64,000 bases of DNA from Methanoregula sp. (GCA_052325125.1 JBKQWO010000028.1), one strand, 5' to 3'; counted from the stretch's first letter, positions 1 through 64,000 are shown. The notes: generated by a model not told the origin, from the letters alone. Numbers and translations: made by a program.

Positions 1-819
1 ATCCTCCCCGCATACCTGCTGGAGATTCACCATGCTCAGCGCGAGACGATCCGCAAGAAACGGCCGGAATTCCTCCATCATGTCCAGCGCAAGGCTTGCC
101 CTTCCGGGCCGGTCGGTATGGAAGAACCCGACATACGGATCGAGCCCTACGGTCTCCAGTGCCGATTCCACATCGTGGGCAAGGAGCGTGTAGAGAAATG
201 ATAGAAGGGCATTCATATTGTCGCGGGGCGGCCGTCGGTTTCTTTCCCGGACAAAGAACGTATCTTTCTGTTTGAGGATCAGTTCGTCCATTACATCGAA
301 ATAAAATTTCGCGCAGTTCCCTTCGATGCCCCGCAACGCATCGGCATTGGGGCACTCCTCAATCTTCGACAGGTTCTCTATCAGGAGATAATCTGCATTC
401 CTGATAGATTCGCACCGGATTGTATCGCCATGATCCCGGATGCTTCTCCCAAGAACCGTCCGGCAATTGACGATCTTCGCAGTGATGAAACATCTGGCGA
501 TATCCAGTGATGCCCCGGTGTCATCAGCAATACGGTACTGGGTACGCCTGAGCAGAACATTTCCCCGTACGCGGCCATTCACCCGGCCCATAAATTTTCC
601 ATAGGGTGTGAGAAACGAAAGCCCGACATTATTGTCCGTGCACAACTGCATCAGCTGAGGGCTCGCTCCCATGTAGCCAAAACAGACAATTCCTTCGATG
701 TTATGGATGGGGATCCGGAAACGCTCATCGCTGCCGACTTTCACGATAACATTCTCACCGTCGCGGTGCAGGAAGGATTCCGGGGTCGTGACATAGAGGG
801 TGTTGAGCAGTTTTCTCAT
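1..819 (-). CDS. cas1: CRISPR-associated endonuclease Cas1 (N-terminal 273 codons; the gene continues past the left window edge)
   Basis: Absent from the ORF track because it is open at the window edge. My reverse-complement translation from the ATG at 819-817 gives MRKLLNTLYVTTPESFLHRDGENVIVKV...RRPPRDNMNALLSFLYTLLAHDVESALETVGLDPYVGFFHTDRPGRASLALDMMEEFRP, 273 codons with no stop. These are Cas1 hallmark motifs, and the gene sits downstream of cas4. Confidence 0.9.
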   Translation of the reverse strand, partial: MRKLLNTLYVTTPESFLHRDGENVIVKVGSDERFRIPIHNIEGIVCFGYMGASPQLMQLCTDNNVGLSFLTPYGKFMGRVNGRVRGNVLLRRTQYRIADDTGASLDIARCFITAKIVNCRTVLGRSIRDHGDTIRCESIRNADYLLIENLSKIEECPNADALRGIEGNCAKFYFDVMDELILKQKDTFFVRERNRRPPRDNMNALLSFLYTLLAHDVESALETVGLDPYVGFFHTDRPGRASLALDMMEEFRPFLADRLALSMVNLQQVCGED

Positions 820-870
820 TGCATCCACACCCCTTGATGGCATCGAATTCCTACTGCAATAGGCAGGCAC

Positions 871-1557
871 TCACAGGTCAAGAGCACACGCCTCCCGGAT
901 ATGTCTCCCGATATAATTCCGTACCGGACTTTTCTTCTTTGTCAGTTTCGGAACACAGATATCGACAAGGGAGCAGAGGGCACAGTTCTTTCCGGCTTCC
1001 GCTTCCGGCGTAATCCCATTCCGGAAAATCGTATGCATTTCATCGGCAAGCGATCGTACCGTGCTGCGCAGATCATCCGTGATGGCAAGGTGTTGTCTCC
1101 TGCGGATCTCATTGTAATAGAAATCGGCTGAGTCAATCCGGATGCCAAACATCTCTTCAAGGCACATGACCTGTGCACAGAGCTGGACCTCGTCACGCTC
1201 ATCGATCTTCGGTTTTCCCCGTTTGTACTCCACGGGTTTCATCAGCCACAGCCCTTCATGATCGGGAATCGGGATTCCGTGATCAGATCGGGTGTACTCG
1301 ATCACATCCGCAATACCGGTAAGTCCGAGCGTGTACGAGACAAGAGGATATGCACGGGAGATAACAACATCTCCCCGTGACTCGTTGAAGAACGGATCAT
1401 CGACCCGCTCATGAACGAAATGCCCCTCCTGTGTGCGGAGATTTTCCTGCCACTGCTGTTCGACATGGATCAGCGCCCACTGCCGCCTGCAGAAACAAAA
1501 ATGCTGGATACCGGATAACGAGAGCAGCTCGTCATCGGTATATCGGGGTCCACTCAT
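871..1557 (-). CDS. cas4: CRISPR-associated exonuclease Cas4 (RecB-like, Fe-S cluster)
   Basis: ORF 871..1695 trimmed to the internal ATG (MSGPRYTDDELLSLSGIQHFCFCRRQW...), which overlaps the cas7 stop as ATGA at 1554-1557. It has the RecB nuclease core (PVEYKRGKP) and a C-terminal Cys cluster (CALCSLVDIC) plus an N-terminal Cys, as in Cas4. Confidence 0.85.
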   Translation of the reverse strand: MSGPRYTDDELLSLSGIQHFCFCRRQWALIHVEQQWQENLRTQEGHFVHERVDDPFFNESRGDVVISRAYPLVSYTLGLTGIADVIEYTRSDHGIPIPDHEGLWLMKPVEYKRGKPKIDERDEVQLCAQVMCLEEMFGIRIDSADFYYNEIRRRQHLAITDDLRSTVRSLADEMHTIFRNGITPEAEAGKNCALCSLVDICVPKLTKKKSPVRNYIGRHIREACALDL

Positions 1558-2435
1558 AACTTTTCGACAACCTCGACTCCCTTGGGAACATCTTTTGCTA
1601 CCGTGACTTTGTAATCCGCAAACGAACGCGGCGGAAGATCTTTTGATAACCGTTCGACTTTGATCTTGTCGAACAGGATATGCGACTGGCAGCACCCGAG
1701 TTCGCTGTCATGCTTGAAGACGATCAGTTTCCTTGCGGACATTTTCCCTCTCGCAGCGGAATGGTCGTGCTCGAACATGTTTACGAGGCTCTCCCAGAGA
1801 AGGGCAAGATCTTCTTCGGAGAAGCCGGTACCTACTGTTTTTTTACCTTTGTCAATTTTTGCCAAATTAGCAGAAATATAGCCCTCGGCACGATAGAGAC
1901 CATACGGTACGATCTGTTTCTTCCCCATTGTCTGATTTTTAGTATCAGTTTCCTTTTCATTGGTTACCGCACAGCGTGTGATCGTGACCTCCTGCTGAAA
2001 GATCGGATCCTGACTCCGAGCGAAATTTAGCTGTACTGGACCCCGTACTTGACCGAAATTCGCTTCCTTTCCAACCATTACAGCACCGAAGGTACGAACA
2101 TCAAAAAAGTTTTTACACATGAATTGGATCAATTCCAAAGCTTCTTCCTTTTTCGGATTTTTTGTATCCTTAACCTTAACTGCTGTATATGCCTTCTTAT
2201 TTTGATTGTCAAGAACAGATCCAGAACGGACATATATATCATATCCATCTGCGCCCTGTTTCACCAGATCAACATAATCGCGAATCTTCCGCTTAAGACA
2301 GACATCAGTTACGATTCCATATCCTGTCTGGGGATCAATTCGTGGCATATTTCCCATATCGGGATCTCCGTTCGGGTTTCCGTTTTCGACATCGAACAAT
2401 AATACAAACTCATAACGGTTTTTTATTTCACTCAT
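1554..2435 (-). CDS. cas7: Cas7 backbone subunit, type I-C (Csd2 family)
   Basis: 293 aa. The N-terminus MSEIKNRYEFVLLFDVENGNPNGDPDMGNMPRIDP and the FDVRTFGAV motif are typical of Csd2/Cas7. It lies between cas8c and cas4. Confidence 0.9.
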   Translation of the reverse strand: MSEIKNRYEFVLLFDVENGNPNGDPDMGNMPRIDPQTGYGIVTDVCLKRKIRDYVDLVKQGADGYDIYVRSGSVLDNQNKKAYTAVKVKDTKNPKKEEALELIQFMCKNFFDVRTFGAVMVGKEANFGQVRGPVQLNFARSQDPIFQQEVTITRCAVTNEKETDTKNQTMGKKQIVPYGLYRAEGYISANLAKIDKGKKTVGTGFSEEDLALLWESLVNMFEHDHSAARGKMSARKLIVFKHDSELGCCQSHILFDKIKVERLSKDLPPRSFADYKVTVAKDVPKGVEVVEKL

Positions 2436-4330
2436 GGTTTTTCCTCCTTTGAATTTTGATCGGTTTCCTCACTTTTCCTGAAGTGCCGCTGATGATAATA
2501 TCCCAACATGAACATACCTTGATCCTCAAGATTGAGATATGGTGGAACCTTATCAACTGATGAAATAATTTCACTGTTTAATTTTGAGAAATATGTCTCT
2601 AATTTGGGTTTTTCGGATTTTATTTTCGACAAATGATGTTGATTGAGTTTCATTAAAATTGGGAAAACAATTGCAGGCGATGATGATGCACTCGCAAAAT
2701 AACTATCTCGAATTGTTCTCTTTATCCCAGACTTAGGATTATCTGGATCTTTATGTGCTGTAATCTGTGCAAATTCCATGACTGCGAATAATCTTCCAAG
2801 ACGATACGGTATATTAGTACTTTCTTCGTTAAGACTCACGGTAATCAAATCCTCTTTCAAGTTAGTCAAGCCGGCTCGGCTCATTCTCAACAGGTAGGCT
2901 TTGATGAATCCTGCCTGAACGTAATCCGGGCGACTCAAAGATTTTTCATCATCGATCCGAGGAATTTTCACACGCTTCATAATCGAAGTATACATTTGAA
3001 TTGGGTACTGTCGATTGGTGAGGATCGCTCTGATGAGAGTATCTTCAAGCAATGGGGGGATCTTTTTAAGTTGTGATTCTGAAAAACCCGAATCTTGATT
3101 GTCCCCTTTTTTTGTCCGGGATTTATTTCCTTTTTGGTGGGGGAGAGTCGCTAATAACAACCTGAAAAATGAGATGTTCCTTGGGCCCCGATTGCCAATT
3201 TCCATATCGAGATGATGTCTGGCGATGTGGGTAATAAAATTCCCAAATGTATCCTGATACCAAAATTGAACGATATTTCTTCCTTTATTGGAAGAAAGGC
3301 CGATTATAAAAAAATTTGTTTTTTCTAGGTCAAATTTATCCTTCAAATTCTGGCCCGTCTTCACCTTGATGAGGATATCATTAATCAGCTGTTCCGTATC
3401 AAAATCTTCTTCTGTAGCAGAATTATTATTGATCAATCCCGTTACGAGACTTCCGATATTTTCTTTCGTTTCGGCCCAAAAGACAATTACTGTATCACCG
3501 ATTTGAATTTTGTTCTCGCTTTTCGGTCTCAAGAGATAATTGAGGGCTATCGTATATTTTACCATTGAGTTTTTTCCTACCGGGGCGTTCTCTCCCTGTT
3601 CCCTTCCGTACGAACAGAATGCCGGGTCGTTGAAACTTACAAGAGGTGCTTTGACTTTTGGATCCACATTGATCGGGTTATGTCTCCGAGCGATACTTTC
3701 AATTTTACCGGTAACAAGACATTGTCCATAGATTTGATTTTCTTCCGAACTTTCATTGAAATAATTCATCCAGACGTTTTGTGAAAATGGTTTTTCATGG
3801 AGATATCCCTCTCCTATTCTAAAAACAAAATTGGTATTGTTATCGAATAGTTCAAGATTTCTAATCACTAGAGGATTATCGTGAAAGGATTCGGGTCTCC
3901 AATTGTCGAGAAATTTTAAGAAACTGATGATTTCAGGCATACTGTTGTCGTTAAAAAGGTCATGATGAAATTTTTTAAAAGCCTCGAAACATGCCTTCGA
4001 ATTTTTGGTCACCCTATATTTCGATACTATATCCTCTTTCTGTTGTTTGTCGGTTTCTTGTGTTTTCTCTATTCCGAAAACGTACTTCAGATTATCACGT
4101 AGGAAGAAAGGAGTTTTATCCGATGAACGGGATTGCTTGAAGGGAACATTCATTGAAATCGGTTTTGGTTTTTTCCCCCCAGTTCTTTGGTCTATAATTC
4201 CTTCGAGCGATCCTTCGTCAGAAATTTCCAGAACGAATGATATCGGCACGCTGCTGTACCCGGGTCGCGGAAGATCAGGATTATTATCACTTAATATATC
4301 GTAATAACGACATAACGCTTGGAGGATCAT
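2432..4330 (-). CDS. cas8c: Cas8c large subunit, type I-C (Csd1 family)
   Basis: ORF 2432..4354. The preferred start is M9 (MILQALCRYYDIL..., the usual Csd1 N-terminus) because its ATG overlaps the cas5 stop as ATGA at 4327-4330. Its size (632 aa) and its position between cas5 and cas7 fit Cas8c. Confidence 0.8.
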   Translation of the reverse strand: MILQALCRYYDILSDNNPDLPRPGYSSVPISFVLEISDEGSLEGIIDQRTGGKKPKPISMNVPFKQSRSSDKTPFFLRDNLKYVFGIEKTQETDKQQKEDIVSKYRVTKNSKACFEAFKKFHHDLFNDNSMPEIISFLKFLDNWRPESFHDNPLVIRNLELFDNNTNFVFRIGEGYLHEKPFSQNVWMNYFNESSEENQIYGQCLVTGKIESIARRHNPINVDPKVKAPLVSFNDPAFCSYGREQGENAPVGKNSMVKYTIALNYLLRPKSENKIQIGDTVIVFWAETKENIGSLVTGLINNNSATEEDFDTEQLINDILIKVKTGQNLKDKFDLEKTNFFIIGLSSNKGRNIVQFWYQDTFGNFITHIARHHLDMEIGNRGPRNISFFRLLLATLPHQKGNKSRTKKGDNQDSGFSESQLKKIPPLLEDTLIRAILTNRQYPIQMYTSIMKRVKIPRIDDEKSLSRPDYVQAGFIKAYLLRMSRAGLTNLKEDLITVSLNEESTNIPYRLGRLFAVMEFAQITAHKDPDNPKSGIKRTIRDSYFASASSSPAIVFPILMKLNQHHLSKIKSEKPKLETYFSKLNSEIISSVDKVPPYLNLEDQGMFMLGYYHQRHFRKSEETDQNSKEEKP

Positions 4331-5013
4331 GAGAACGAACCCTCTTGTTTGCATTTGTTAATATCGATCACACCATCGATCATCTTGGCTCTGAAGAAAA
4401 CTGCACGAATATTATCGGTATTCGTAAAATCCAAGTCCCAAAGCATCACCCCGAAATCTTTGGTTCCTTCCTTCAATCCATGGTATTGTGATTTGGGAAC
4501 CTCTCCATCAATTAATTCAAAATTCGCCGGGAACTCCCTACATCCGAAATAGGGTTGATGAAAAAATTGACCTTTTCGCATCCTTCTAAGTGCGATATTA
4601 TAATGTTTCTCCACAGTTTCCTCTCGACCGGCCTTATTTGTCAGCTCAAAATGTGCTTCGATGTAATAGCAGATATCACGAAGAATTATCGATGCTCGTT
4701 GAACAGCTTCCTTATCGGGGTCTTGGGAAAGCATAACTTCTTCACCGTTCATCGCTTTTTTTATCTTATCTTTTGGGATTTTTCCCGGGCGTTCATTTCT
4801 TCGAATGTTATCAAATTTTATCGGATTCATAACGTGAATCTTATCGATAATCCAAACTATTTCCGGTTTCCAATAGATCGCTTCAAGAATCCCCCTTGCG
4901 GACGATGGAGTCATCACATCATAACTGACCCTTTCTGATTTTAATTCCGGTCGCGTAAAGCAAGCATAATCTCCCCAAACTTTAAGGATAATACCATATC
5001 CGATATCCATCAC
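4327..5013 (-). CDS. cas5: Cas5, type I-C (Cas5d-like, expected pre-crRNA endoribonuclease)
   Basis: 228 aa. LKVWGDYACFTRPELKSERVSYDVMTPSSARGILEAIYWKPE is the Cas5d-type N-terminus. It directly follows cas3, and no cas6 is present in the operon. Confidence 0.85.
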   Translation of the reverse strand: MMDIGYGIILKVWGDYACFTRPELKSERVSYDVMTPSSARGILEAIYWKPEIVWIIDKIHVMNPIKFDNIRRNERPGKIPKDKIKKAMNGEEVMLSQDPDKEAVQRASIILRDICYYIEAHFELTNKAGREETVEKHYNIALRRMRKGQFFHQPYFGCREFPANFELIDGEVPKSQYHGLKEGTKDFGVMLWDLDFTNTDNIRAVFFRAKMIDGVIDINKCKQEGSFS

Positions 5014-5018
5014 CTCCT

Positions 5019-7214
5019 TCAGTAATTTAAGAATGGCATTTCCATCCGATTATCTTTTGCATTTAATAATCCAACATTCATATCATACCATTTTTTGTCA
5101 TTCAGAATGTGGAAACGATCTTCAACAAAATCAACTAAGTGTAATCTCTCCAACTCGTTGAATTCTATCGGAAAGATGCTAATTGTATACCCTTGAATTT
5201 TCCGGATATTCTGCCAAAGATCTTTTCCTTGACGTAGATTAGTAATTGCTGATTTGGCTTCATCATCATATGGAATGATAAGCTCTTTCGTTCCATCTTC
5301 AATCAGTTTAAACGCAGCAGATATATCCTCAAAAGGAAATTTGTAGTTTTTCGATCGTTTCTCAATCATTTTTAGGATGCCCTCTTTATCAAGACCTTCG
5401 CCCTCATAGAAATATAGTTCTTTAAAGTAATATTCAACAGAATCTAGGGAAAGAATATCATCATCTTCAAATTTTTTTATCGTTTTTTCTCCAATTGATG
5501 CAATTCGTCTTTGCCAAGAGGTTTCAGATATGGCATCATCGTCATTAGACCTGAAAATGAAAACCTCCCCACATGGCAATTTCCCTTCACGGTTGCACCT
5601 GCCGGCAGCCTGTGCAACCGAATCGATACCGGTCATGGTCCGGTACACAACCGGGAAATCGATATCGACACCGGCCTCGATCAGCTGCGTTGAGATGACC
5701 CGGCAGTCCTTCCCCTCGCGAAGCCGGGTCTTGATCTCTGCGATCTTTTTCCTGCGATGAACCGGGCACATACGGGCACTGAGATGATAGCAATTTTCGG
5801 AGTCTTTGATCGCATCGTACAGTTTCTTTGCATGGTTTCGGGTATTCACAATACAGAGAACCTGCCGGTGACCGGTCAGCCGGGTAGAAAGTTCCGCATC
5901 GCTGAGCGGGCCAAGATTCGTCACGTTCACCCGCTTGAAAGTTTTATACAATCGATCCGGCGATTGCATGATCTCCCGGGGCCGGGCTTTTTCATCGAGC
6001 AGATCCCCCAGTCGCGGTTGTGTCGCGGTACAAATCACGACCGTTGCGCCAAAGTTGCGTACAAGTTCCGACAATGCCGCAAGACAGGGAAGCAGGTACC
6101 CGGTGGGGAGCATCTGCGCCTCGTCAAGGATGATGACGCTCTTTGCGAGATTGTGCAGTTTGCGGCAGCGGGAGCGTCGGTTGGAAAAGAGCGATTCAAA
6201 GAACTGGACATTGGTAGTGACAACGATAGGCATGTCCCAGTTTTCAGTTGAGAGCATGAGTGACTCGCATACAGGATCATCATTCCCATGCTTCACGGTT
6301 GCCGGATCAAAATTGCTGTGATGCTCCAGCACATTCCGGCTCCCAAAAATGTTCCGGAACACTTCCGCGTTCTGTTCGATGATGCTGGTATACGGGATAA
6401 TATAGAAGATCCGTTTCAGGTCATGGGTCCTGATATGTTCAAGCGCAAAGGCCATTGAGGAAAGTGTTTTTCCTCCGCCGGTCGGGACGGTCAGGCTGAA
6501 AATACCGGGTGGCAGCGAGCCGGCATTGACGCATTGCTCAAAAATTTCCTGCCGTTCGCGGTTGATGAGTGTATCTTTCGCATCGGAACGTATTTCCTGC
6601 ATGTGGGCTTCGAATTTCCTGTTCAGGATCGCAAACGATTCGTAATTCCCACGGGATGAAGATTTTCCAGGAGAACAGAATTTTTCTGTGTCGAGTGAAT
6701 CTGCATCCACAAGGCAGGAGTAAAGCATCCGCGTAAAGAATGAAACACAAAAGCCGGTTTTATGCGGAAATGGGTGTAACCTGAAAGGCCCGATTGCCTG
6801 CGTGTCAATCGAAATCTCCGTGTGGTACGCAGAATAATCCGGAATTTTCACCTTCTGCAATCGTTCGCAAAGTCCTCCTTCAGCGCTCCCGTAATTCAAA
6901 AGACCCCCGTGATGACCGGCAACAAGGTAGGCAAACATCAACCCTGCAGGGTACTGGTCATTTTTGAACAGCCGGGTTCCCTCAATCGCTCCGCCTGTTG
7001 AGTGATCAACGGAGATCTTCTCTCCTTCGAGACGTTTCTGGAATTCACGGGAATATTTTCCAAGATCGTGAAGGAGCCCGCTGGCATATGCAAGGTCGCC
7101 GGCAGAAAAATCATCCGCAAAAGTCCGGGACAAGTGCCCGACATTAATCAGATGATCCCGGAGGTTTTGCCAGTTGGATTTATCCGGGTTTTTGGTTGAG
7201 TGGGCGTAGTACAT
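5019..7214 (-). CDS. cas3: Cas3 HD nuclease / DEAH helicase
   Basis: 731 aa. It has an N-terminal HD domain (LLHDLGK, VAGHHGG) and helicase motifs PTGGGKT (I), ILDEAQ (II), CTATQP (III) and QAAGRCNR (VI). It is the first gene of the cas operon. Confidence 0.9.
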   Translation of the reverse strand: MYYAHSTKNPDKSNWQNLRDHLINVGHLSRTFADDFSAGDLAYASGLLHDLGKYSREFQKRLEGEKISVDHSTGGAIEGTRLFKNDQYPAGLMFAYLVAGHHGGLLNYGSAEGGLCERLQKVKIPDYSAYHTEISIDTQAIGPFRLHPFPHKTGFCVSFFTRMLYSCLVDADSLDTEKFCSPGKSSSRGNYESFAILNRKFEAHMQEIRSDAKDTLINRERQEIFEQCVNAGSLPPGIFSLTVPTGGGKTLSSMAFALEHIRTHDLKRIFYIIPYTSIIEQNAEVFRNIFGSRNVLEHHSNFDPATVKHGNDDPVCESLMLSTENWDMPIVVTTNVQFFESLFSNRRSRCRKLHNLAKSVIILDEAQMLPTGYLLPCLAALSELVRNFGATVVICTATQPRLGDLLDEKARPREIMQSPDRLYKTFKRVNVTNLGPLSDAELSTRLTGHRQVLCIVNTRNHAKKLYDAIKDSENCYHLSARMCPVHRRKKIAEIKTRLREGKDCRVISTQLIEAGVDIDFPVVYRTMTGIDSVAQAAGRCNREGKLPCGEVFIFRSNDDDAISETSWQRRIASIGEKTIKKFEDDDILSLDSVEYYFKELYFYEGEGLDKEGILKMIEKRSKNYKFPFEDISAAFKLIEDGTKELIIPYDDEAKSAITNLRQGKDLWQNIRKIQGYTISIFPIEFNELERLHLVDFVEDRFHILNDKKWYDMNVGLLNAKDNRMEMPFLNY

Positions 7215-8048: not shown

Positions 8049-8128
8049 ATTTAGTGCCTCACATCTCCGACGTGAGAATGCCCTTTTGATCCCGAATTAG
8101 TGCCTGTTTTTGGGGAATTAGTGTCTCC
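8049..8128. repeat. three copies of the short direct repeat AATTAGTGYCT; function unknown
   Basis: The copies are atttagtgcctc at 8049-8060, aattagtgcctg at 8095-8106 and aattagtgtctc at 8117-8128. They lie 190-270 nt upstream of the MNT start. Confidence 0.5.
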
Positions 8129-8318
8129 CGGCCGGAAAATGAGGGTGATCGGAATCCAAAACGGGCCCGGAATACTTCATGTCACAAGGGATCCGGCATT
8201 TCGGGATCCCTTCCCCGTTAGCTTCTCCCCTGGTGCCATCCATACCCTTATGTTGACCGGTTGCCCAACAACTACTCAATCACAGAAGATCCGCAGAGGG
8301 TTAAGGAAGGGAGTGCGA

Positions 8319-8657
8319 ATGACCGGGCAGCCCGTATCGCAACAAAAAAGAAACCGTGCAGGAACGAGTCGTGCCGTAAAGAGACTCGCAGCAGCAGCCC
8401 CGGCCATCCGCCAAAAATTCGGCGTGACAAAACTCGGCATGTTCGGCTCGTTTGCCCGGGGAGAGCAGACAGCCAGAAGTGATGTCGATGTACTCGTTTG
8501 CTTTGCACCGGGATGTGCTACGCTCCATAACTTCATTTGCCTCTCGGATTATCTTGAAGCGCTGTTTAAGCGCAATGTGGATCTCCTCACGGAAGATTCG
8601 CTCTCGGATCTGATCCGGCCTTATATCGAGCGGGATGTGATCTGGATTGAAGGATGA
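8319..8657 (+). CDS. MNT-type nucleotidyltransferase (antitoxin of a HepT/MNT module)
   Basis: ORF 8100..8657 trimmed to the ATG at 8319, which is preceded by aaggaaggga. It has the nucleotidyltransferase motif GMFGSFARGEQTARSDVDVLV (GSxxRGxxxxxSDxD). It overlaps the next gene by 11 nt. Confidence 0.8.
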   Translation: MTGQPVSQQKRNRAGTSRAVKRLAAAAPAIRQKFGVTKLGMFGSFARGEQTARSDVDVLVCFAPGCATLHNFICLSDYLEALFKRNVDLLTEDSLSDLIRPYIERDVIWIEG

Positions 8658-9003
8658 CAGGATTCTTCTTATCCACATTCACCGGGAGATCGTTTTTCTT
8701 ACCACAATTAGCACCGGTCGGAAGTATGAGGACCTCTTAAGCGACGAATATTATGCCCATGCGGTAATCCGGGCAGTCGAGGTGATTGGTGAAGCCGTAA
8801 AGAACCTCTCCGCACCGCTCAAAGAGCGTCATCCCGAAATTGAATGGCGGGAGATTGCCGGCATGAGAGACAAGGTGATCCACCGGTATTTCGAGATCAA
8901 CTGGCAGATTGTCTGGAATGTCATCAATGAGAATCTTCCGGCAATTGAACCGAAGATTGCCGATCTGATAGAGGAGACTGGTGCCGTTTCCGGTACGTCA
9001 TAG
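8647..9003 (+). CDS. HepT-like (DUF86/HEPN) RNase toxin
   Basis: 118 aa with the HEPN Rx4-6H motif in GMRDKVIHRYF. The start is TTG at 8647, with no in-frame ATG nearby. It is translationally coupled to the MNT gene. Confidence 0.75.
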   Translation: MKDDRILLIHIHREIVFLTTISTGRKYEDLLSDEYYAHAVIRAVEVIGEAVKNLSAPLKERHPEIEWREIAGMRDKVIHRYFEINWQIVWNVINENLPAIEPKIADLIEETGAVSGTS

Positions 9004-9467: not shown

Positions 9468-10943
9468 TTATTCTGTTTTCTTCTTCTCTGCCTGCCGGTC
9501 CTTCTCCCGGTACCCTTCGAGCAAAACCGTCATGATGTTTTTCACCGGCTTGTCCGAATGGCTCGCGATATGGAACTCGCAGAACGGGCAGGAGGTGATC
9601 ACGACATCCGCACCGGTCTTTCTGATCTCTTCGCGTCGCTTCTCCCCGAGGGCTGCCGCTTCTTCGGGAAGGCCGGACTTCACCCCGCCGCCGGACCCGC
9701 AGCAGATGGCCGGCATCTCGACAAGATCGACTACCTGCCGGATCAGCTGCCGGGGCTCGTCTTTGATGTCCTGGCCCCGCATCAGGTGGCAGGGGTCATG
9801 GTAGGTCGCTTTCACCGGGAGCCGGGCCGGGGGCTCGATCCCGTATTTCGTGAGCACCTCGTTAATATCCATGACCCTGAACGGGGTGACATAATCGTGC
9901 TTGAGCGTCGAGCCGCACCCGGCACACATCGTCATCACGGTGTCGATCCCCCGGGTCTGGAACGCATCGATGTTGCGTTTCCTGAGCGTATCGATATAAT
10001 CCAGCTGGCCGGTACGGATTAAGGGTGAACCACAGCAGATCTGTTCGCGGGGGATGATCACGCGGATGCCGTTTCTTTTGAGTACCTCGATCGCGTCGAG
10101 TGCAGACTGCTGCTGGCGCAGGTTGTACATGCAGCCGACAAAGAATCCCACGGTGGCTTTCACCGGCCCGTACGGTTCGATAATCGTGCCTACCTGCTCC
10201 ATGAAAGACGGTGCGGTCCGGACAACGCTGCGGCCGGTCTCTTTGATAAGGGCTGCGACTTGAAGATGACGGGGGAGCGCGAACCCCTCCTTGTTTGCGA
10301 GCGCCCGGAGTTTTTCGATCGCTTTTCCCGGGATCTGGATATTCTTGGGGCAGACCTTCCAGCAGGCCTGGCAGCTCGTGCAGGTGAACAGGCCGTCCCG
10401 CACCGCATCCGGCACCCGGCACCCGGTGTCCCGCGGGTCGAGGGCAAGGCGCATCTCCTGCCTCATCGCGGTGGGCCCGAGAAATTTTGTTACGTCCATC
10501 GCGGGGCAGACCGAGACGCATGCCATGCATTCGATACAGTCCCTGAGCGGTTTTATTTCATCGATCTCAGCCTTGGCAGGGAGGCGTATTTCCCTCCCGG
10601 CTGCGGCCGGTTTCAGCGAAGCGATCTGCTGGATCTTCGGGAGAAGATCAACGATGAGGTCCTGCCTGACCGGCAGGTTCAGCGGCGCAATCGTGATACC
10701 GTCTTTTGCCTCCTCCATGCAGGCAAGCACCGGTTCCCCGTTCACCCGCACGGCGCAGCTTCCGCACTGCCCGGAGCCGCAGCAGTACCGGTACGCGAGC
10801 GTGGGATCGATGGTGTCGTGGATCGCATGCAGGATGTGGAGGACCCGGGCGCCTTCATGTACGCTGACCGTGTAGGATTCTGGCCGGGGTGCTTTGTCCT
10901 TTTTCGGGTCAAACCGCTGGATCGTTACGTGCAGTTCCTTCAT
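9468..10943 (-). CDS. tfrB: thiol:fumarate reductase subunit B (SdhB-like Fe-S domain fused to an HdrD-like CCG domain)
   Basis: ORF 9468..11246 trimmed to MKELHVTIQRFDP, whose ATG overlaps the tfrA stop as ATGA (10940-10943). It has a 2Fe-2S motif (CCGSGQCGSCAV), 4Fe-4S motifs (CIECMACVSVCP, CTSCQACWKVCP) and two CCG motifs (ICCGSP, ICCGSGGG). Confidence 0.8.
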   Translation of the reverse strand: MKELHVTIQRFDPKKDKAPRPESYTVSVHEGARVLHILHAIHDTIDPTLAYRYCCGSGQCGSCAVRVNGEPVLACMEEAKDGITIAPLNLPVRQDLIVDLLPKIQQIASLKPAAAGREIRLPAKAEIDEIKPLRDCIECMACVSVCPAMDVTKFLGPTAMRQEMRLALDPRDTGCRVPDAVRDGLFTCTSCQACWKVCPKNIQIPGKAIEKLRALANKEGFALPRHLQVAALIKETGRSVVRTAPSFMEQVGTIIEPYGPVKATVGFFVGCMYNLRQQQSALDAIEVLKRNGIRVIIPREQICCGSPLIRTGQLDYIDTLRKRNIDAFQTRGIDTVMTMCAGCGSTLKHDYVTPFRVMDINEVLTKYGIEPPARLPVKATYHDPCHLMRGQDIKDEPRQLIRQVVDLVEMPAICCGSGGGVKSGLPEEAAALGEKRREEIRKTGADVVITSCPFCEFHIASHSDKPVKNIMTVLLEGYREKDRQAEKKKTE

Positions 10944-12568
10944 GCCGCCACCTTCCGCCCCTCGATCCCCTCGCGGTTTTTCGAGATGTACGTGTGGCCG
11001 TAGGGCGAATGCGCCGCGTCCCATTCCTGCACAATGTCGATCCGCATGTGGGCGCCCCGGGATTCGGGCCGGATCAGGGCCGAACGGCAGATGAGCGAGG
11101 CCGTCAGGCACATATTCTCCACGATACAGCAGTCCGCAAGGTTCTTTTGCGACACGGCTTTGAGCGGCGCCTGCATGAGCCGGTCTGCAGTTGCCAGCGC
11201 ATTTTTGAGCCCAGCCTCGTCCCGGAATATCCCGGCACCCTTCCACATCGCATGCTGGAGTTCATCCCGGGCCATGGCCGGGTTTTCCGTGCCGGAAAGG
11301 AACCGGTCGAGACGCTTTTCTGCTCCTGCGATCTGCGCCGGGTCGATCTTCTTTACCCGCTTTTCCGTTCGGGCTGCAGATTCCCCGGCGCGTTTCCCGA
11401 AGACCTGCGTGTCGGCAAGGGCATTCCCGCCAAGACGGTTCGCGCCCTGCACGCCCCCGGCCGATTCGCCGCAGGCAAAGAGTCCCGAGAGCGTTGTCCG
11501 GCATTCTGGCGTGATCTTTAGTCCGCCCATAATGTGGTGGGCGGTCGGGGCAACCTCCATGGGCTCGGTCCGGATGTCCACGCCAAACTTGAGGAACTGT
11601 TCGAGCATCACCGGCAGCCGGGTCTCAATCTGCTCTTTTGGCAGGTGGGTCACATCGAGCCAGACCCCGCCGCGTTCCGTGCCCCGGCCGTTTGCGATCT
11701 CGGTTGCAATCGCCCGGGCGACCACGTCCCGGGTCGAGAGCTCCATCCGGTCGGGGTCGTATCTTTTCATGAACCGTTCGCCGAGCCGGTTTACAAGGAT
11801 GCCCCCCTCACCCCGGACCGCTTCGGTGATGAGCCTGCCCCGGGCATCGTACGGGTACACCGCACCGGTCGGATGGAACTGGATCATCTCCATGTCGATG
11901 AGTTCTGCCCCCGCCCGGTACGCCATCGCAAACCCGTCCCCGGTCCCGCTCGATGAATTGGTCGAGACATCATACACCCGTGTCCCACCGCCGGTTGCAA
12001 GGATCGTGCTGTCGGCTTTGAGAACCACCAGCGCACCGTTCTCGTCCAGTGCCATCGCTCCTGCGACCCGGTCGCCATCTTTAAGGAGATCGATCACGGT
12101 CACCTCTTCCAGTTTTGGGACCTCCGCAGCATCGAGCTGCTCGACCAGTGTCGTCATCATCTCGTGACCGGTCCTGTCGCCGGCGTAGCAGGTCCGGGGG
12201 AACCGCTGGCCACCGAACGGGCGCTGGGCGACCTCGTTATTTTCCGTGAAGTCAAAAACCGCCCCCCACCGGATGAGGTCGTCCATGCGCAGCGGGGATT
12301 CCTTCACGAGAATCTTTACGAGCTCCGGGTCATTGAGGTAGGCCCCTCCCCTGAGCGTATCCTCGTAGTGGATCTCGCAGGAGTCCTCCTCGCGCAGCAC
12401 CGCGTTGTAGCCTCCTTCGGCCATGGTGGTGCATCCTCCCTTTCCCGCGATGGTTTTCGAAACAAGCACGGTGTCACCGTACGGTGCAGCCTCGATCGCC
12501 GCCCGTACTCCCGCACCACCGCTGCCGATCACCAGCACATGGCAGTCCACCACGTCATCTGCACGCAT
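10940..12568 (-). CDS. tfrA: thiol:fumarate reductase subunit A (fumarate reductase/succinate dehydrogenase flavoprotein family)
   Basis: 542 aa. It has an N-terminal FAD fold (VLVIGSGGAGVRAAIEA) and conserved FRD/SDH flavoprotein blocks (HPTG, HHIMGG). It is coupled to tfrB. Confidence 0.8.
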   Translation of the reverse strand: MRADDVVDCHVLVIGSGGAGVRAAIEAAPYGDTVLVSKTIAGKGGCTTMAEGGYNAVLREEDSCEIHYEDTLRGGAYLNDPELVKILVKESPLRMDDLIRWGAVFDFTENNEVAQRPFGGQRFPRTCYAGDRTGHEMMTTLVEQLDAAEVPKLEEVTVIDLLKDGDRVAGAMALDENGALVVLKADSTILATGGGTRVYDVSTNSSSGTGDGFAMAYRAGAELIDMEMIQFHPTGAVYPYDARGRLITEAVRGEGGILVNRLGERFMKRYDPDRMELSTRDVVARAIATEIANGRGTERGGVWLDVTHLPKEQIETRLPVMLEQFLKFGVDIRTEPMEVAPTAHHIMGGLKITPECRTTLSGLFACGESAGGVQGANRLGGNALADTQVFGKRAGESAARTEKRVKKIDPAQIAGAEKRLDRFLSGTENPAMARDELQHAMWKGAGIFRDEAGLKNALATADRLMQAPLKAVSQKNLADCCIVENMCLTASLICRSALIRPESRGAHMRIDIVQEWDAAHSPYGHTYISKNREGIEGRKVAA

Positions 12569-23330: not shown

Positions 23331-24029
23331 ATGGAGCATATCAGGAAGGCCTTTGATGCGGTGGCCGCGGAATATGATGCACAGCGCGAACATGTCATCC
23401 CTGACATGCGGAACTACTACAGCGCTGCTGTCTGGGCAGCGGAGAGCCCGTCGCATACTCCTGCGATCCTTGATATTGGGGCGGGAACCGGCCTGTTAAC
23501 CGCGCTCCTGCTTGAAAAATACCCGGCCGCGAACGTCACCCTGCTCGATATCGCGGAGAAGATGCTTGCCGTCGCACGGGAGCGCTTTTACGGCCGGGAG
23601 AATGTTTGTTTCCGGGCCGGGGATTATGCACAGGTGGACCTTGGCGGGCCTTACGACCTTGCCTGTTCCGCACTCTCGATCCATCACCTCGATCCCGGCG
23701 ACAAGCGCCGGCTCTTCGGGCGGGTGTACCGGGCCCTCGTCCCGGGCGGGATTTTTGTCAATGCCGACCAGACCGAAGGAGAGACGCCTTACTTCACGGA
23801 AAGGTACCGCGAGTACTGGAATGATTTCCTGAAAAGCGGGCCGCTTACCTCAGAAGAGCGGACAGAGATCCTGACGCGCCGGGACACGCTGGACAGGAAT
23901 GAGAAACTATCCGTGCAGCTCCAGTGGCTTCACGAGGCCGGGTTCACCGATGTCGATGTGGTCTACAGGAACCGGACGTTTATCGTGACCGTGGCGAGGA
24001 AAGAAAATACGGCAGAAACAGGCCAGTAG
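23331..24029 (+). CDS. class I SAM-dependent methyltransferase
   Basis: ORF 23259..24029 trimmed to the ATG at 23331, which is preceded by taaggaggga. It has the SAM motif ILDIGAGTGLLT and post-I/II motifs (LDIAEKML, DLACSALSIHHL). Confidence 0.8.
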   Translation: MEHIRKAFDAVAAEYDAQREHVIPDMRNYYSAAVWAAESPSHTPAILDIGAGTGLLTALLLEKYPAANVTLLDIAEKMLAVARERFYGRENVCFRAGDYAQVDLGGPYDLACSALSIHHLDPGDKRRLFGRVYRALVPGGIFVNADQTEGETPYFTERYREYWNDFLKSGPLTSEERTEILTRRDTLDRNEKLSVQLQWLHEAGFTDVDVVYRNRTFIVTVARKENTAETGQ

Positions 24030-62300: not shown

Positions 62301-63287
62301 GACCACGCGATGCTTATATGGGATGTCCAGTACTTAAGGAAGATCAAGGCACTCGAAATCAAAGCCGGGGATGCCGTGCCCGTATATGAAGGTGGGGCGG
62401 TGATCACCGACCGGATCGCAGCGGTCGAAACCGTGACATCTCTCGAAGACCGGGTGTACTGCCTGACGGTCGCTGACGATCACACGCTGGTCGCAAACGG
62501 CATCTTCACCGGGCAGTGCGACGGCGATGAGGACTGCATCATGCTTCTCATGGACGGGTTGTTGAACTTCTCGCGCTCGTTCCTGCCCCAGAATCGTGGC
62601 GGCACGATGGATGCTCCCTTAGTGCTCACGAGCCGCATCGACCCGGCAGAGATCGACAAGGAGGCCCTGAACGTGGATGTCGGGCGAGGTTATCCGCTTG
62701 AACTGTACGAGGCAGGGCTCAGGTACGCAAAGGCAAAGGATGTCGAGCCGCTGATCGACCGGGTCGAGCGGAGGGTGGGAACCCCGCAGCAGCTGGAAGG
62801 ATTTTTCTTCACGCACGATACCTCGGATATATCGGCAGGGCCCTTAGAGTCCACCTATACGCAACTCAAGACCATGGCCGAAAAACTTGAGGCGGAACTC
62901 GATCTGGCCGAGAAGATCCGGGCTGTCGATGCGGATGATGTGGCGGAGCGTGTCCTCAACACGCATTTCATCCGCGACCTGATGGGCAACCTCTCCGCAT
63001 TCTCCAAGCAGAAGTTCCGGTGCACCAAGTGCAATACGAGTTACCGGAGGATGCCGCTTGCCGGCAAGTGCACGAAGTTCAAAGGGAAGGGGATCTGCAA
63101 TGGCAATATTATCCCGACCGTGCACGAAGGGTCGGTCAAAAAATACCTTGAGGTTTCCCGTGCGATGGTGAAAAAATACAAGGTATCTGAATATTGCCGG
63201 CAGCGGGTCGAAGTGCTCGACCTTGCCATCGAATCGACGTTTGGCGAGGAGAAGCAGGAGCAGCTGGGCCTCGCGGATTTTATGTGA
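59370..63287 (+). CDS. polC: DNA polymerase II (PolD) large subunit DP2, interrupted by a mini-intein
   Basis: 1305 aa with DP2 blocks along the whole length, a Zn-finger cluster (CTGCGG...CPKCG...CPKCG...CPNC) and the catalytic motif AAKRRN / CDGDEDC split by 165 extra residues. Confidence 0.95.
62022..62516 (+). mobile_element. mini-intein (165 aa, no homing endonuclease domain) in the PolD DP2 active-site motif
   Basis: It occupies codons 885-1049 of polC. It starts at Cys ([10 protein letters not shown], block A), has TxxH block B (VTPDHAML) and block [23 protein letters not shown], and is followed by the +1 Cys of CDGDEDC. The C-terminal residue is Gln, not Asn. Confidence 0.85.
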
Positions 63288-63440
63288 TCCCTGTCGATCA
63301 GGCACCTCTGGCAGTACCCCCGCTTGCCGTTATCCACGCCTTTCCCATAAAATCTGGACTTCGAGATTTATGCCGCCTCATGGCATACGTGTCTTGATTG
63401 TCAAAGCCTTTTACTATCCAAAAATCAATAGTACTTTCAA

Positions 63441-63523
63441 GCGAGAATAACCAAGTGGTCAACGGTGATCGACTCAAGATCGATTCGCGCAGGCGTTCGC
63501 AGGTTCGACTCCTGCTTCTCGCA
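63441..63523 (+). tRNA. tRNA-Leu (anticodon CAA)
   Basis: GCGAGAATAACCAAGTGGTCAACGGTGATCGACTCAAGATCGATTCGCGCAGGCGTTCGCAGGTTCGACTCCTGCTTCTCGCA. It has acceptor stem GCGAGAA/TTCTCGC, anticodon arm ATCGA-CTCAAGA-TCGAT, a long variable arm and T-arm GCAGG-TTCGACT-CCTGC. No CCA is encoded. Confidence 0.85.
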
Positions 63524-64000
63524 TGGCATAAATGGGTTACCGGAATCTCGCATTTTAAAAACCCATCACTTCTGATATCACAGTTCTTAGATCGCACAAC
63601 TTAGAAAAAGCCGCATTTGTTTTTATGGGCTCCCGCTTTTAAAAACGATATTCCTCTTTTGATTAGTCGTAGTGCACCACATTTAATGTCCATTTTGTTG
63701 ACAGAATTTCTGTTCGGTGTTGCGATATTTTCGGTTCTGGAGAAATCCTAGTTTTTCAACAGAAACACTGGCACGCTACAAGTCTCCTCCCAGGAAGGTG
63801 CTGCCCCCCCGAAGTGAACGGAATAAAGCAGGGACGGCTTCACTGTTTCACTTCTGCATTGACCTATTATGGGAAGGAGAAATCTGCTGCACTGAGAATT
63901 TCTTTGGCAAATTCCATTGCTGCAAGATCGAGAATTGTCTCTGTCTAATGTCTAAAAATGACAATAGTGGCAAAAAATGCGCTTTATTTTTTAAAACAGG

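What the first reader, a model, noticed from the sequence alone, without database searches (positions are those of the whole stretch)
2095..5580. Abrupt low-GC cassette inside the type I-C cas operon, with both breakpoints inside intact ORFs (cas7 and cas3)
I counted G+C by hand on printed 60-nt lines. The counts are: 61-120 (cas1) 39/60; 1681-1740 (cas7 3' part) 34/60; 2041-2100 30/60; 2101-2160 18/60; 2161-2220 19/60; 2581-2640 16/60; 4741-4800 23/60; 5401-5460 17/60; 5461-5520 19/60; 5521-5580 25/60; 5581-5640 36/60; 5641-5700 34/60; 5701-5760 35/60. About 3.5 kb is therefore roughly 30-40% GC: the first ~113 codons of cas7, all of cas8c and cas5, and the last ~185 codons of cas3. The rest of the same operon and the window are about 47-65% GC. 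The amino acid composition follows the same shift: K/N/I/Y/F-rich inside the block and A/G/R-rich outside. In cas3 the switch occurs within about 40 nt, right after helicase motif VI (QAAGRCNREG, residues ~535-545). That is the boundary between the RecA2 domain and the C-terminal domain. In cas7 the switch falls at the conserved FDVRTFGAV motif (residues ~111-119). All frames stay open and the ATGA couplings are preserved. My interpretation is that homologous recombination replaced the Cascade module, together with the Cas3 C-terminal domain, with an allele from a low-GC donor. The crossovers would lie in the two most conserved sequence patches. The resident helicase core and the adaptation genes (cas4, cas1) would have been kept.
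Basis: partly seen in the sequence, partly recalled or inferred. Interest (0 to 1): 0.7.

Follow-up and report, generated by a model that had tools for sequence, protein, structure and literature searches.

The report
Swapped AT-rich Cascade cassette in cas operon
A methanogen's type I-C CRISPR operon carries a 3.7-kb AT-rich replacement of its Cascade genes, joined inside intact cas3 and cas7 genes by recombination; this is a clear archaeal example of a known kind of CRISPR module exchange.

Summary
All 13 hand GC counts are exact. Window 1828-5565 is 38.5% GC, against 52-53% in the rest of the operon and 56% in the rest of the window (z about -10).

The recombination reading is strongly supported. 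The backbone is Cas3 HD-helicase, the Cas7 C-terminus, Cas4, Cas1 and the CRISPR repeat. It is 84-99% identical to Methanoregula relatives that carry a GC-normal cassette only 44-50% identical in the Cas3 C-terminal domain (CTD) and Cas8c. An informative-site test puts the breakpoints at 5560-5574 and 1824-1831. Three other assemblies contain the same mosaic, so it is not an assembly chimera.

Two corrections:
- The cas7 junction lies near residue 202, not at FDVRTFGAV (residue ~113).
- No low-GC donor genome was found. The closest cassettes (Cas8c 64-70% identical) all sit in similar mosaic operons of 50-55% GC Methanoregulaceae, on different backbones, and three other carriers' Cas3 proteins lose identity at the same cas3 site.

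Synonymous sites among these cassettes are near saturation, yet all remain AT-rich. The low GC is therefore a stable property of a rare, recurrently exchanged effector haplotype.

Precedent exists (E. coli I-E Cascade exchange), so this is a new member of a known kind.

The parts
1828..5565 (-). AT-rich effector cassette (38.5% GC). It holds the Cas3 C-terminal domain (residues ~551-731), cas5c, cas8c and Cas7 residues 1-~202.
   Evidence: GC change-point at 1835/5565. Max-chi-square breakpoints at 5560-5574 and 1824-1831. GC value.
5552..5574 (-). Recombination junction inside cas3, just after helicase motif VI (codons ~547-555).
   Evidence: The window is identical to L004/L003 up to codon 547 and matches L001 up to codon 554; identity then collapses. 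blastn matches to all five backbone relatives (L001, L003, L004, L010, L020) end at 5552 or 5548.
1780..1831 (-). Recombination junction inside cas7 (codons ~202-219).
   Evidence: A 21-nt insertion is shared with cassette relatives L040/L002 but not with L004. Downstream of 1780 there is 1 mismatch in 80 nt against L004. Sliding identity is; max-chi-square.
5019..7214 (-). cas3 (731 aa), a chimeric gene. The HD and helicase core belong to the backbone; the C-terminal domain belongs to the cassette.
   Evidence: NCBIfam cas3_HD matches residues 18-176 and cas3_core residues 241-561.
4327..5013 (-). cas5c (228 aa), inside the cassette.
   Evidence: TIGR01876, E=7.7e-50. 65-67% identical to backbone relatives and 76-81% to cassette relatives.
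2432..4354 (-). cas8c/csd1. The ORF is 640 aa; the likely start is M9 at 4330, in an ATGA overlap with the cas5 stop. It is the core of the cassette.
   Evidence: TIGR01863, E=1e-116. 59-70% identity within its own clade and 44-50% to the standard type.
1554..2435 (-). cas7/csd2 (293 aa), a chimeric gene. Residues 1-~202 belong to the cassette; residues ~203-293 belong to the backbone and are 99% identical to L004.
   Evidence: TIGR02589.
871..1557 (-). cas4 (backbone). It contains a further backbone mosaic junction near 1100-1200, where the closest relative changes from L004 to L010.
   Evidence: TIGR00372; sliding nucleotide identity.
1..870 (-). cas1c, which runs off the window start (backbone; 90-98% nucleotide identity to L010). 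cas2 and the CRISPR array lie just beyond coordinate 1.
   Evidence: TIGR03640. The array is seen in the co-linear contig L123.
1836..1856 (-). 21-nt insertion in cas7 (IDKGKKT) that marks the cassette haplotype.
   Evidence: Present in the window, L040 and L002; absent from L004, L010 and L039.
3059..3139 (-). Lys/Ser/Asn-rich insertion in Cas8c (residues 406-432), ahead of the C-terminal Cas11-like region. It is shared by the rare AT-rich Cas8c types.
   Evidence: Cas8c alignment; coordinates.

Best explanation
The window holds a type I-C CRISPR-Cas operon of a Methanoregula-like methanogen that is a recombinant mosaic.

A 3.7-kb divergent, AT-rich effector cassette sits in a GC-normal backbone. 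The cassette comprises the Cas3 C-terminal domain, Cas5c, Cas8c (with its embedded small-subunit region) and the first ~202 residues of Cas7. The backbone comprises the Cas3 HD-helicase core, the Cas7 C-terminus, Cas4, Cas1 and the repeat array. The backbone itself recombines freely among related strains.

The cassette was installed by homologous recombination. The crossovers resolved in the first stretches of adequate similarity on either side of the divergent block. One lies just after helicase motif VI in cas3 and the other at codons ~202-219 of cas7. This produced in-frame chimeric Cas3 and Cas7 proteins.

The event is not unique to this window. The same cassette clade sits on at least four different backbones, and the three other carriers' Cas3 proteins lose identity at the same cas3 site. 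At least two further rare AT-rich cassette types exist in this family.

Shown: the mosaic structure, the breakpoints, the recurrence and the shared CRISPR repeats. Inferred: the cassettes are interchangeable effector alleles, and exchange is favoured because it changes the surfaces (Cas8c, Cas7, the Cas3 C-terminus) that anti-CRISPRs are known to target in bacterial I-C systems. The immediate donor was most likely another Methanoregulaceae strain that already carried this haplotype. The ultimate reason for its low GC is unresolved.
For: Composition
- The GC step is confirmed.

Cas3 discordance
- The Cas3 N-terminal part is 89% identical to P0002 but the C-terminal part only 44%. Among 119 homologues, pairs with 85-90% N-terminal identity average 82% in the C-terminal part.

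Flanks and breakpoints
- Nucleotide identity to L004 is 96-99% up to codon 547 of cas3 and 97-100% from window 1780 down to ~1170. Within the cassette, amino-acid identity to L004 is 44-50% for the Cas3 CTD and Cas8c, 65-67% for Cas5 and 76-79% for the Cas7 N-terminal part.
- blastn matches to all five backbone relatives stop at 5552/5548, whereas cassette relatives align end to end.
- Max-chi-square breakpoints are 5560-5574 and 1824-1831, reached by 0 of 100 permutations.

GC of relatives
- The closest backbone relatives (L001, L003, L004, L010, L043, L047, L050) have cassettes at 47-53% GC.

Recurrence
- P0001, P0006, P0019 and P0020 share the CTD clade. Each has a different 85-90% identical N-terminal neighbour, and identity collapses after GEVF[IV]F[RK]S in all four pairs.
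- L040 versus L006 repeats the whole-operon pattern: Cas1 96%, Cas4 92%, Cas7 C-terminus 96%, but Cas8 50%.

Interchangeability
- This strain's repeat is identical to L010's (standard cassette), and L040's repeat is identical to L006's.

Not an artefact
- The same locus occurs at 99.3-99.9% identity in three other assemblies.

Junction position
- The junctions coincide with the outermost conserved patches between cassette types.

Anti-CRISPR link
- AcrIC3 probably binds the Cas3 C-terminus, and most AcrIC proteins block Cascade (PMC7913775). AcrIC8 and AcrIC9 contact Cas8 and Cas7 (bioRxiv 10.1101/2023.08.05.552134).
Against: - No near-identical donor cassette exists in the databases. The best Cas8c is 69% identical, and the best CTD representative is 47%. 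Direction and source of the transfer are therefore inferred, not observed.
- The L004-like near-identity is confined to about 335 nt and 630 nt next to the cassette. The fragment imported into this lineage may therefore have been larger than the cassette, and the cassette-edge joints may be older than that import.
- Alignment inside the most divergent part of cas8c is uncertain, which affects the informative-site counts but not the flank-defined breakpoints.
- The I-C Cas3-Cascade structure shows contacts through the HD and helicase domains, not the CTD. Co-transfer of the CTD may therefore be hitch-hiking rather than functional linkage. L042 and L127 show cassettes exchanged without the CTD.
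- The anti-CRISPR rationale rests on bacterial systems only.
Confidence: 0.85

Rival explanations
1. The low GC reflects direct import from a low-GC donor organism outside the family. A foreign I-C Cascade allele from an AT-rich genome recombined into a high-GC resident operon.
For: GC3 is 29-39% in the cassette and 59-62% in the backbone. The amino-acid composition is shifted. Horizontally acquired DNA is typically AT-rich (established knowledge). Uniformly lower-GC I-C operons do exist among related archaea, for example L052-L054 at 41-47% GC across the operon.
Against: No uniformly low-GC genome carries a close relative. All Cas8c clusters at 64-69% identity whose contig was examined (L002, L039, L040/L041) lie in similar mosaic loci with 50-55% GC flanks. 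The low-GC archaeal operons are only 42-43% identical in Cas8c, and bacterial I-C Cas8c proteins are 28-36% identical. Nothing was found in viral, plasmid or phage collections. Four-fold sites among cassette-A members are near saturation (50-70% different), yet GC4 stays at 0.29-0.50 in each. This scenario would therefore need several independent recent imports from an unsampled reservoir.
Confidence: 0.35
2. The cassette is an old, balanced effector haplotype native to Methanoregulaceae. Its AT-richness arose in place. It is too divergent to recombine with the common allele, so it is excluded from the homogenising (and possibly GC-biased) recombination that maintains the backbone, and it drifts to the AT-biased mutational equilibrium. 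It still moves between strains as a unit through its conserved flanks.
For: All three rare Cas8c types (clade A, the L009/L126 type, and the L042 type, which L127 resembles in GC but was not compared with directly) are at 35-40% GC, while the common type is at 45-53%. The low GC is stable across saturated synonymous divergence. The backbone is a fine patchwork of segments 85-99% identical to different relatives, which indicates frequent recombination. The GC edges coincide with the edges of alignable similarity. No external donor was found.
Against: GC-biased gene conversion has not been shown for these archaea. No substitution-direction test was run. The common cassette type is also quite divergent internally (Cas8c 63-97%) without being AT-rich. 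The idea is indistinguishable, with the present data, from repeated import from an unsampled AT-rich reservoir.
Confidence: 0.3
3. No exchange occurred. The Cascade genes and the Cas3 CTD simply evolved faster and drifted towards AT in this lineage (selection or relaxed constraint rather than recombination).
For: The CTD and Cas8c are the least conserved parts of I-C operons generally. Standard loci show a slight dip of about 3 GC points there.
Against: The flanks are 96-100% identical to L004 while the cassette is 44-50% identical in the CTD and Cas8c (65-79% in Cas5 and the Cas7 N-terminal part), with steps sharper than 25 nt. The cassette phylogeny is incongruent with the backbone on four backbones. 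The 21-nt insertion is shared only with cassette relatives.
Confidence: 0.03
4. The mosaic is a metagenome-assembly chimera that joins two strains at conserved sequence.
For: The window comes from a metagenomic contig. The junctions lie next to conserved stretches, where assembly graphs can cross over.
Against: The same arrangement, with both junctions, is found at 99.3-99.9% identity in contigs from two other ENA assemblies. Their naming and frameshift pattern suggest long-read assemblies, although this was not verified. A Logan short-read contig from a further run spans the cas7 junction. Analogous mosaics occur in unrelated samples (L002, L040, L041).
Confidence: 0.02

Closest known systems
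[quoted passage not shown] 2014, mBio, PMC3903273)
   Same: The Cascade-encoding genes have a phylogeny incongruent with cas1-cas2-cas3. GENECONV detected recombination concentrated in the Cascade region, with 'partial gene substitutions'. Codon-usage and GC differences mark the exchanged genes.
   Different: This case is archaeal and type I-C. The breakpoints are resolved to about 20-50 nt inside cas3 and cas7, giving chimeric proteins. cas3 is split between the modules. Identity is lost at the same cas3 site on four backbones. The exchanged haplotypes are persistently AT-rich.
Modular evolution of CRISPR-Cas loci: shuffling of adaptation and effector modules (the Makarova/Koonin classification papers and archaeal module-exchange work, cited from my own knowledge and not re-read here)
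   Same: The adaptation module (cas4-cas1-cas2 plus repeats) and the effector module have separate histories.
   Different: The exchange here is within one subtype and between close relatives, by homologous recombination. The module boundaries fall inside genes rather than between operons.
Allelic cassette switching at surface-antigen and specificity loci by recombination in conserved flanks, such as capsule, O-antigen or hsdS loci (analogy, from my own knowledge)
   Same: A divergent, often AT-rich central cassette is flanked by conserved sequence that provides the homology for replacement. Several discrete types are maintained in the population.
   Different: The cassette here encodes the effector complex of an immune system, not a surface structure. 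Frequency-dependent selection is hypothesised, not shown.
Type I-C Cascade-Cas3 of Neisseria lactamica and Pseudomonas aeruginosa (bioRxiv 10.1101/2023.08.05.552134; PMC7913775)
   Same: The gene set and order are the same (cas3-cas5-cas8-cas7-cas4-cas1). Cas8c recruits Cas3. Anti-CRISPRs target Cas8, Cas7 and probably the Cas3 C-terminus, which are the parts contained in the cassette.
   Different: Those papers do not describe natural chimeric operons. The structural Cas3-Cas8 contacts involve the HD and helicase domains, which here belong to the backbone.

Membership tests
Type I-C CRISPR-Cas system | Signature genes cas8c/csd1, cas7/csd2 and cas5c (the Cas5 that replaces Cas6), with cas3, cas4 and cas1c in a single operon | tested here: met
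   NCBIfam matches: TIGR01863 (391 bits), TIGR02589 (345 bits), TIGR01876 (170 bits), cas3_core and cas3_HD, TIGR00372. cas1_DVULG scores 374 bits, just under its cut-off because the gene is cut by the window end. The order cas3-cas5-cas8-cas7-cas4-cas1 is on the minus strand.
Type I-C CRISPR-Cas system | An associated CRISPR array with a I-C type repeat | tested here: met
   The array is not inside the window. The co-linear contig L123 (99.9% identical) shows cas2 followed by repeats GTCGTACCCCGTGCGGGTACGTGGATTGAAAT at about 65-nt spacing.
Recombinant (mosaic) locus produced by homologous recombination | Statistically supported breakpoints from informative sites | tested here: met
   Max-chi-square of 315-453 for three parent pairs. 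Breakpoints are at 5560-5574 and 1824-1831, and 0 of 100 permutations reach the observed value.
Recombinant (mosaic) locus produced by homologous recombination | Phylogenetic incongruence between segments, measured against a control for unequal evolutionary rates | tested here: met
   The query's CTD identity (41-44%) lies far below the 82% mean for other pairs with equal N-terminal identity. Four backbones carry one CTD clade.
Recombinant (mosaic) locus produced by homologous recombination | Contiguity confirmed independently of one assembly | tested here: met
   L123, L124 and L125, from three other samples or runs, are 99.3-99.9% identical across the junctions.
Horizontally acquired island from a compositionally different donor | Atypical base composition and codon usage relative to the host | tested here: met
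   38.5% against 56% GC. GC3 is 29-39% against 59-62%.
Horizontally acquired island from a compositionally different donor | Close relatives resident in a genome of matching (low) GC | tested here: not met
   The best relatives (64-70% in Cas8c) all lie in mosaic loci of 50-55% GC archaea. An exhaustive CTD search gave a best representative of 47%. There are no viral, plasmid or phage relatives above 34%.
Horizontally acquired island from a compositionally different donor | Mobility hallmarks (integrase, transposase, att repeats, tRNA target) at the borders | tested here: not met
   Both borders lie inside cas3 and cas7 reading frames. The block contains only cas genes. The nearest tRNA is at 24026.
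Cascade-module exchange as described for E. coli I-E (PMC3903273) | Cascade genes are exchanged while cas1/cas2 (and there cas3) follow the strain backbone | tested here: met
   Cas1 and Cas4 are 94% identical to L010, and the Cas7 C-terminus is 99% identical to L004, whereas Cas8c is 47-49% identical to them. Here, unlike in E. coli, only the Cas3 HD-helicase part follows the backbone.
Co-adapted Cas3-CTD/Cascade interaction module | The CTD always co-varies with the Cas8c/Cas5 type, and the CTD forms the Cascade interface | tested here: not met
   L042 (cas8 only) and L127 (cas5-cas8-cas7N) carry rare cassettes with a standard CTD. The published I-C structure places the interface on the HD and helicase domains.

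The most novel reading that the evidence does not exclude
Methanoregulaceae type I-C loci hold a trans-strain, possibly trans-species, balanced polymorphism of discrete effector haplotypes (Cas3 C-terminus, Cas5, Cas8c, Cas7 N-terminal part). These are swapped through fixed intragenic joints and are maintained by anti-CRISPR-driven frequency-dependent selection. The rare haplotypes are AT-rich not because they are foreign, but because they are excluded from the recombination (and any GC-biased conversion) that keeps the backbone GC-rich. On this reading the GC dip would mark a recombination cold spot.
Probability: 0.25. Interest if true: 0.7.

Novelty: new member of a known kind. Interest (0 to 1): 0.45.

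Why it matters
It gives a nucleotide-resolved natural example of in-frame chimeric Cas3 and Cas7 proteins in an operon whose genes are all intact. The Cas3 HD-helicase core, the adaptation genes and the same CRISPR repeat are found with Cascade sets only 44-50% identical in Cas8c.

That is useful for two purposes. First, it suggests that I-C Cas3 and Cascade components may be more interchangeable than their sequence divergence implies, and it points to candidate junction sites (after motif VI in Cas3, near residue 200 in Cas7) for engineering hybrids. Second, it suggests that hosts may change the anti-CRISPR-exposed surfaces of an immune effector while keeping their spacer memory.

The persistent AT-richness of all rare cassette types across saturated synonymous divergence is a small, testable puzzle. 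It bears on whether low GC marks foreign origin or suppressed recombination.

Tried and rejected
1. CTD-only search of the 5.8-billion-protein index returned only fragments of the same protein. The exhaustive representative search gave nothing closer than 47%. No donor was identified.

2. The Cas8c query against viral contigs, plasmids and phages gave no relative above 34% identity. I found no evidence for a mobile-element-borne source.

3. I expected the CTD to be the Cascade-binding surface, which would explain its co-transfer. The I-C cryo-EM paper instead assigns the contacts to the HD and helicase domains. Loci L042 and L127 break the CTD-Cas8 linkage. I therefore treat co-transfer of the CTD as mainly positional: it is the divergent stretch between motif VI and cas5. 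Anti-CRISPR pressure on the Cas3 C-terminus remains a possible extra factor.

4. A different locus (L009/L126) does recover its GC at that position.

5. Assembly chimera is rejected.

6. A single clean double crossover with L004 as recipient is too simple. The L004-like tracts are short, and the rest of the backbone is a patchwork.

7. The Cas8c PAM-loop comparison shows variation both between and within cassette types. No conclusion about PAM specificity could be drawn.

8. Rfam and tRNA scans found nothing relevant in the block.


Full report
OBSERVATION

A sliding profile and a two-breakpoint likelihood scan show a block of 38.4-38.5% GC between about 1835 and 5565. The rest of the operon is 52-53% GC and the rest of the 64-kb window is 56.4%. 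No other 3.7-kb stretch of the window falls below 53.6%, and the block's z-score is about -10.

The genes, all on the minus strand, are:
- cas3 (7214-5019)
- cas5c (5013-4327)
- cas8c (4354/4330-2432)
- cas7/csd2 (2435-1554)
- cas4 (1557-871)
- cas1c, which is cut by the window start

All are confirmed with NCBIfam. The frames are intact, and the ATGA overlaps at cas5/cas8, cas8/cas7 and cas7/cas4 are present. GC3 is 29-39% inside the block and 59-62% outside. FYMINK residues are 36% inside and 25% outside.

WHO AND WHERE

The Cas3 homologues are from Methanoregula, Methanoregulaceae and other Methanomicrobiales. The neighbouring genes include a fumarate-reductase/CCG-domain iron-sulfur protein. 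I take this to be the thiol:fumarate reductase typical of methanogens. Calling the organism a Methanoregula-like archaeon is therefore an inference from these neighbours and homologue names.

IS IT A RECOMBINANT?

Cas3 residues 1-545 are 89% identical to the nearest homologue (P0002), but residues 546-731 are only 44% identical. This is not just a fast-evolving domain. Among 119 homologues, pairs with 85-90% N-terminal identity average 82% in the C-terminal part, while the query's pairs sit at 41-44%.

Full operons of the closest backbone relatives have GC-normal cassettes (47-53% GC). These are L004 (Methanoregula sp. OWC_0058), L010, L043, L047 and L050; L001 and L003 agree as far as they are covered. 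Against these relatives the window scores as follows:

| Segment | Identity to these relatives |
|---|---|
| Cas1, Cas4 | 86-94% (94% to L010) |
| Cas7 C-terminus | 85-99% (99% to L004) |
| Cas8c | 47-49% |
| Cas3 CTD | 40-45% |

At nucleotide level:
- The window is identical to L004 through Cas3 codon 547, and to L001 through codon 554, after which identity collapses.
- blastn matches to all five backbone relatives end at 5552/5548, whereas cassette relatives align end to end.
- On the other side, a 21-nt insertion (1856-1836) is shared with the cassette relatives L040 and L002 but not with L004. From 1780 downward the window matches L004 at 97-100%.

A max-chi-square test on informative sites, using three different parent pairs, puts the breakpoints at 5560-5574 and 1824-1831. 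None of 100 permutations reaches the observed value. These positions agree with the composition-only change points.

The cas7 junction is near residue 202, not at FDVRTFGAV (residues 111-119). The interval 2095-1830 belongs to the cassette but has intermediate GC.

NOT AN ARTEFACT

The same locus, with both junctions, occurs at 99.3-99.9% identity in three other assemblies:
- a 386-kb contig (L123);
- a 20-kb contig from another ENA assembly (L124); the naming and frameshift pattern of both suggest long-read assemblies, though this was not verified;
- a Logan short-read contig from another run (L125), which spans the cas7 junction.

WHERE DID THE CASSETTE COME FROM?

A search with Cas8c finds, apart from the organism's own sequence, only four clusters at 64-69% identity. 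Everything else is at 49% or below. I examined three of the four clusters' loci, which are L002, L039 and L040/L041. Each shows the same kind of dip: the Cas3 CTD, cas5, cas8 and, except in L039, the first part of cas7 are at 35-44% GC, inside flanks of 50-55% GC.

The backbones of these loci are not each other's closest relatives. The four Cas3 proteins that share this CTD clade (P0001, P0006, P0019, P0020) each have a different N-terminal neighbour at 85-90% identity whose CTD is only 41-58% identical. In all four pairs identity collapses at the same place, after GEVF[IV]F[RK]S. L040 versus L006 repeats the pattern across the whole operon: Cas1 96%, Cas4 92%, Cas7 C-terminus 96% and Cas3 N-terminal part 87%, but Cas8c 50%.

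Further rare cassette types exist:
- The L009/L126 type is at 40-44% GC from the CTD to about residue 110 of Cas7.
- In L042 only cas8 is AT-rich (36% GC).
- L127 carries an AT-rich cas5-cas8-cas7N stretch with a standard CTD.

These are documented. The edges therefore vary between loci, which is expected for recombination between diverged alleles.

No donor was found:
- A CTD-only search found no closer relative.
- Viral, plasmid and phage collections hold nothing above 34% identity.
- Uniformly low-GC archaeal I-C operons (L052-L054) are only 42-43% identical in Cas8c.

Four-fold degenerate sites among cassette-A members differ at 50-70%, which is near saturation. Even so, GC4 stays at 0.29-0.50 in each of them, against 0.55-0.73 in their backbones. 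Low GC is therefore a stable property of this haplotype lineage, not a fresh foreign signature that is being ameliorated.

The immediate donor for this window was most likely another Methanoregulaceae strain that already carried the haplotype. Two explanations for the persistent AT-richness remain open:
- repeated import from an unsampled AT-rich reservoir (about 0.35);
- in-place drift of a recombination-excluded haplotype (about 0.3).

MECHANISM

Between the cassette-A and standard operons, the last patch of at least 80% nucleotide identity before the cassette is 5714-5625 (helicase motifs up to VI). The first such patch after it is 1814-1665. The junctions sit at these outer edges. This fits homologous recombination that can resolve only where similarity resumes.

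The backbone itself is a fine patchwork. Cas3 N-terminal segments are closest in turn to L001, L043, L004 and L010. Window 1800-1170 is L004-like, and 1170-1 is L010-like. Recombination among related strains is therefore pervasive. The tract imported into this lineage may have been larger than the cassette.

INTERCHANGEABILITY

This strain's CRISPR repeat, read from L123, is identical to that of L010, which has a standard cassette. The repeat of L040 (cassette A) is identical to that of L006 (standard). Both cassette types thus occur next to identical repeat arrays and closely similar adaptation modules.

WHY THE Cas3 CTD TRAVELS WITH CASCADE

The published I-C Cascade-Cas3 structure places the Cas3-Cas8 contacts on the HD and helicase domains and on an anchor loop, not on the CTD. 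L042 and L127 also show Cascade parts exchanged without the CTD. The simplest reading is positional hitch-hiking: the CTD is the divergent stretch between motif VI and cas5.

An adaptive contribution remains possible. In Pseudomonas I-C, AcrIC3 appears to bind the Cas3 C-terminus and most AcrIC proteins block Cascade. AcrIC8 and AcrIC9 contact Cas8 and Cas7 residues 73-163 in N. lactamica numbering, which would probably fall inside the cassette part of Cas7 if positions correspond (not aligned here). Exchange would replace exactly these surfaces while keeping the spacers. This is inference from bacterial systems.

COMPARISON WITH KNOWN CASES AND VERDICT

Almendros et al. 2014 (PMC3903273) described the same principle in E. 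coli I-E. There, the Cascade genes are incongruent with cas1-cas2-cas3, recombination is concentrated in the Cascade region with partial gene substitutions, and codon usage differs.

This window is a well-resolved archaeal type I-C member of that kind. Its added details are the intragenic joints that create chimeric Cas3 and Cas7, the loss of identity at the same cas3 site on four backbones, and the persistently AT-rich rare haplotypes.

- Interest: moderate (0.45).
Recombination, the cas3 joint and the retained backbone are right. The cas7 joint is misplaced, and the low-GC donor is unproven.

Noticed in passing
window 8100-9003 (+ strand): A nucleotidyltransferase (PF01909) and HepT-like RNase (PF01934) pair, i.e. 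an MNT/HepT toxin-antitoxin module, sits directly upstream of cas3. In contig L124 the similarity to the window ends at 8615, inside the MNT gene, so the upstream context differs between otherwise identical loci.
   Followed up: partly
window ~1100-1200 (inside cas4): A second mosaic junction in the backbone. Window 1800-1170 is 93-99% identical to L004, and 1150-1 is 79-98% (mostly 90-98%) identical to L010. The CRISPR repeat also matches L010.
   Followed up: partly
window 3059-3139 (Cas8c residues 406-432): A Lys/Ser/Asn-rich insertion just before the C-terminal Cas11-like region of Cas8c. It is present in all rare AT-rich Cas8c types (clade A, L009, L042) and absent from the common type. 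Its effect on internal Cas11c translation is unknown.
   Followed up: no
L123 12380-12618 (beyond window coordinate 1): The CRISPR array of this locus starts about 230 nt after cas2. The repeat is GTCGTACCCCGTGCGGGTACGTGGATTGAAAT. Related loci carry stem variants with compensatory changes (GTCACACCC...GGGTGTG, GTCGCACCC...GGGTGCG) and an invariant GTGGATTGAAAT 3' end.
   Followed up: partly
L002 16335-17009; L128 9311-9985: An AT-rich (about 39% GC) Exo_endo_phos family gene is inserted on the opposite strand between cas4 and cas1 in two related operons. It is absent from the window.
   Followed up: no
L039, L123, L124, L126 (several cas genes): cas3, cas7 and cas1 are split into fragments by frameshifts in these contigs, while the window copy is intact. 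This is most likely long-read assembly error rather than pseudogenisation, but it was not verified.
   Followed up: no
window 9468-11246 (- strand): A fusion-like protein with 2Fe-2S, 4Fe-4S and two CCG domains, resembling thiol:fumarate reductase subunit B. The listed ORF has a long N-terminal extension from a GTG start that is probably not translated.
   Followed up: no
window 63001-64000: The second-lowest GC in the window (46%), next to tRNA-Leu(CAA) at 63441-63523. It could be an intergenic region or the start of an integrated element. Not examined.
   Followed up: no
That motif may therefore be a junction in other loci.
   Followed up: partly
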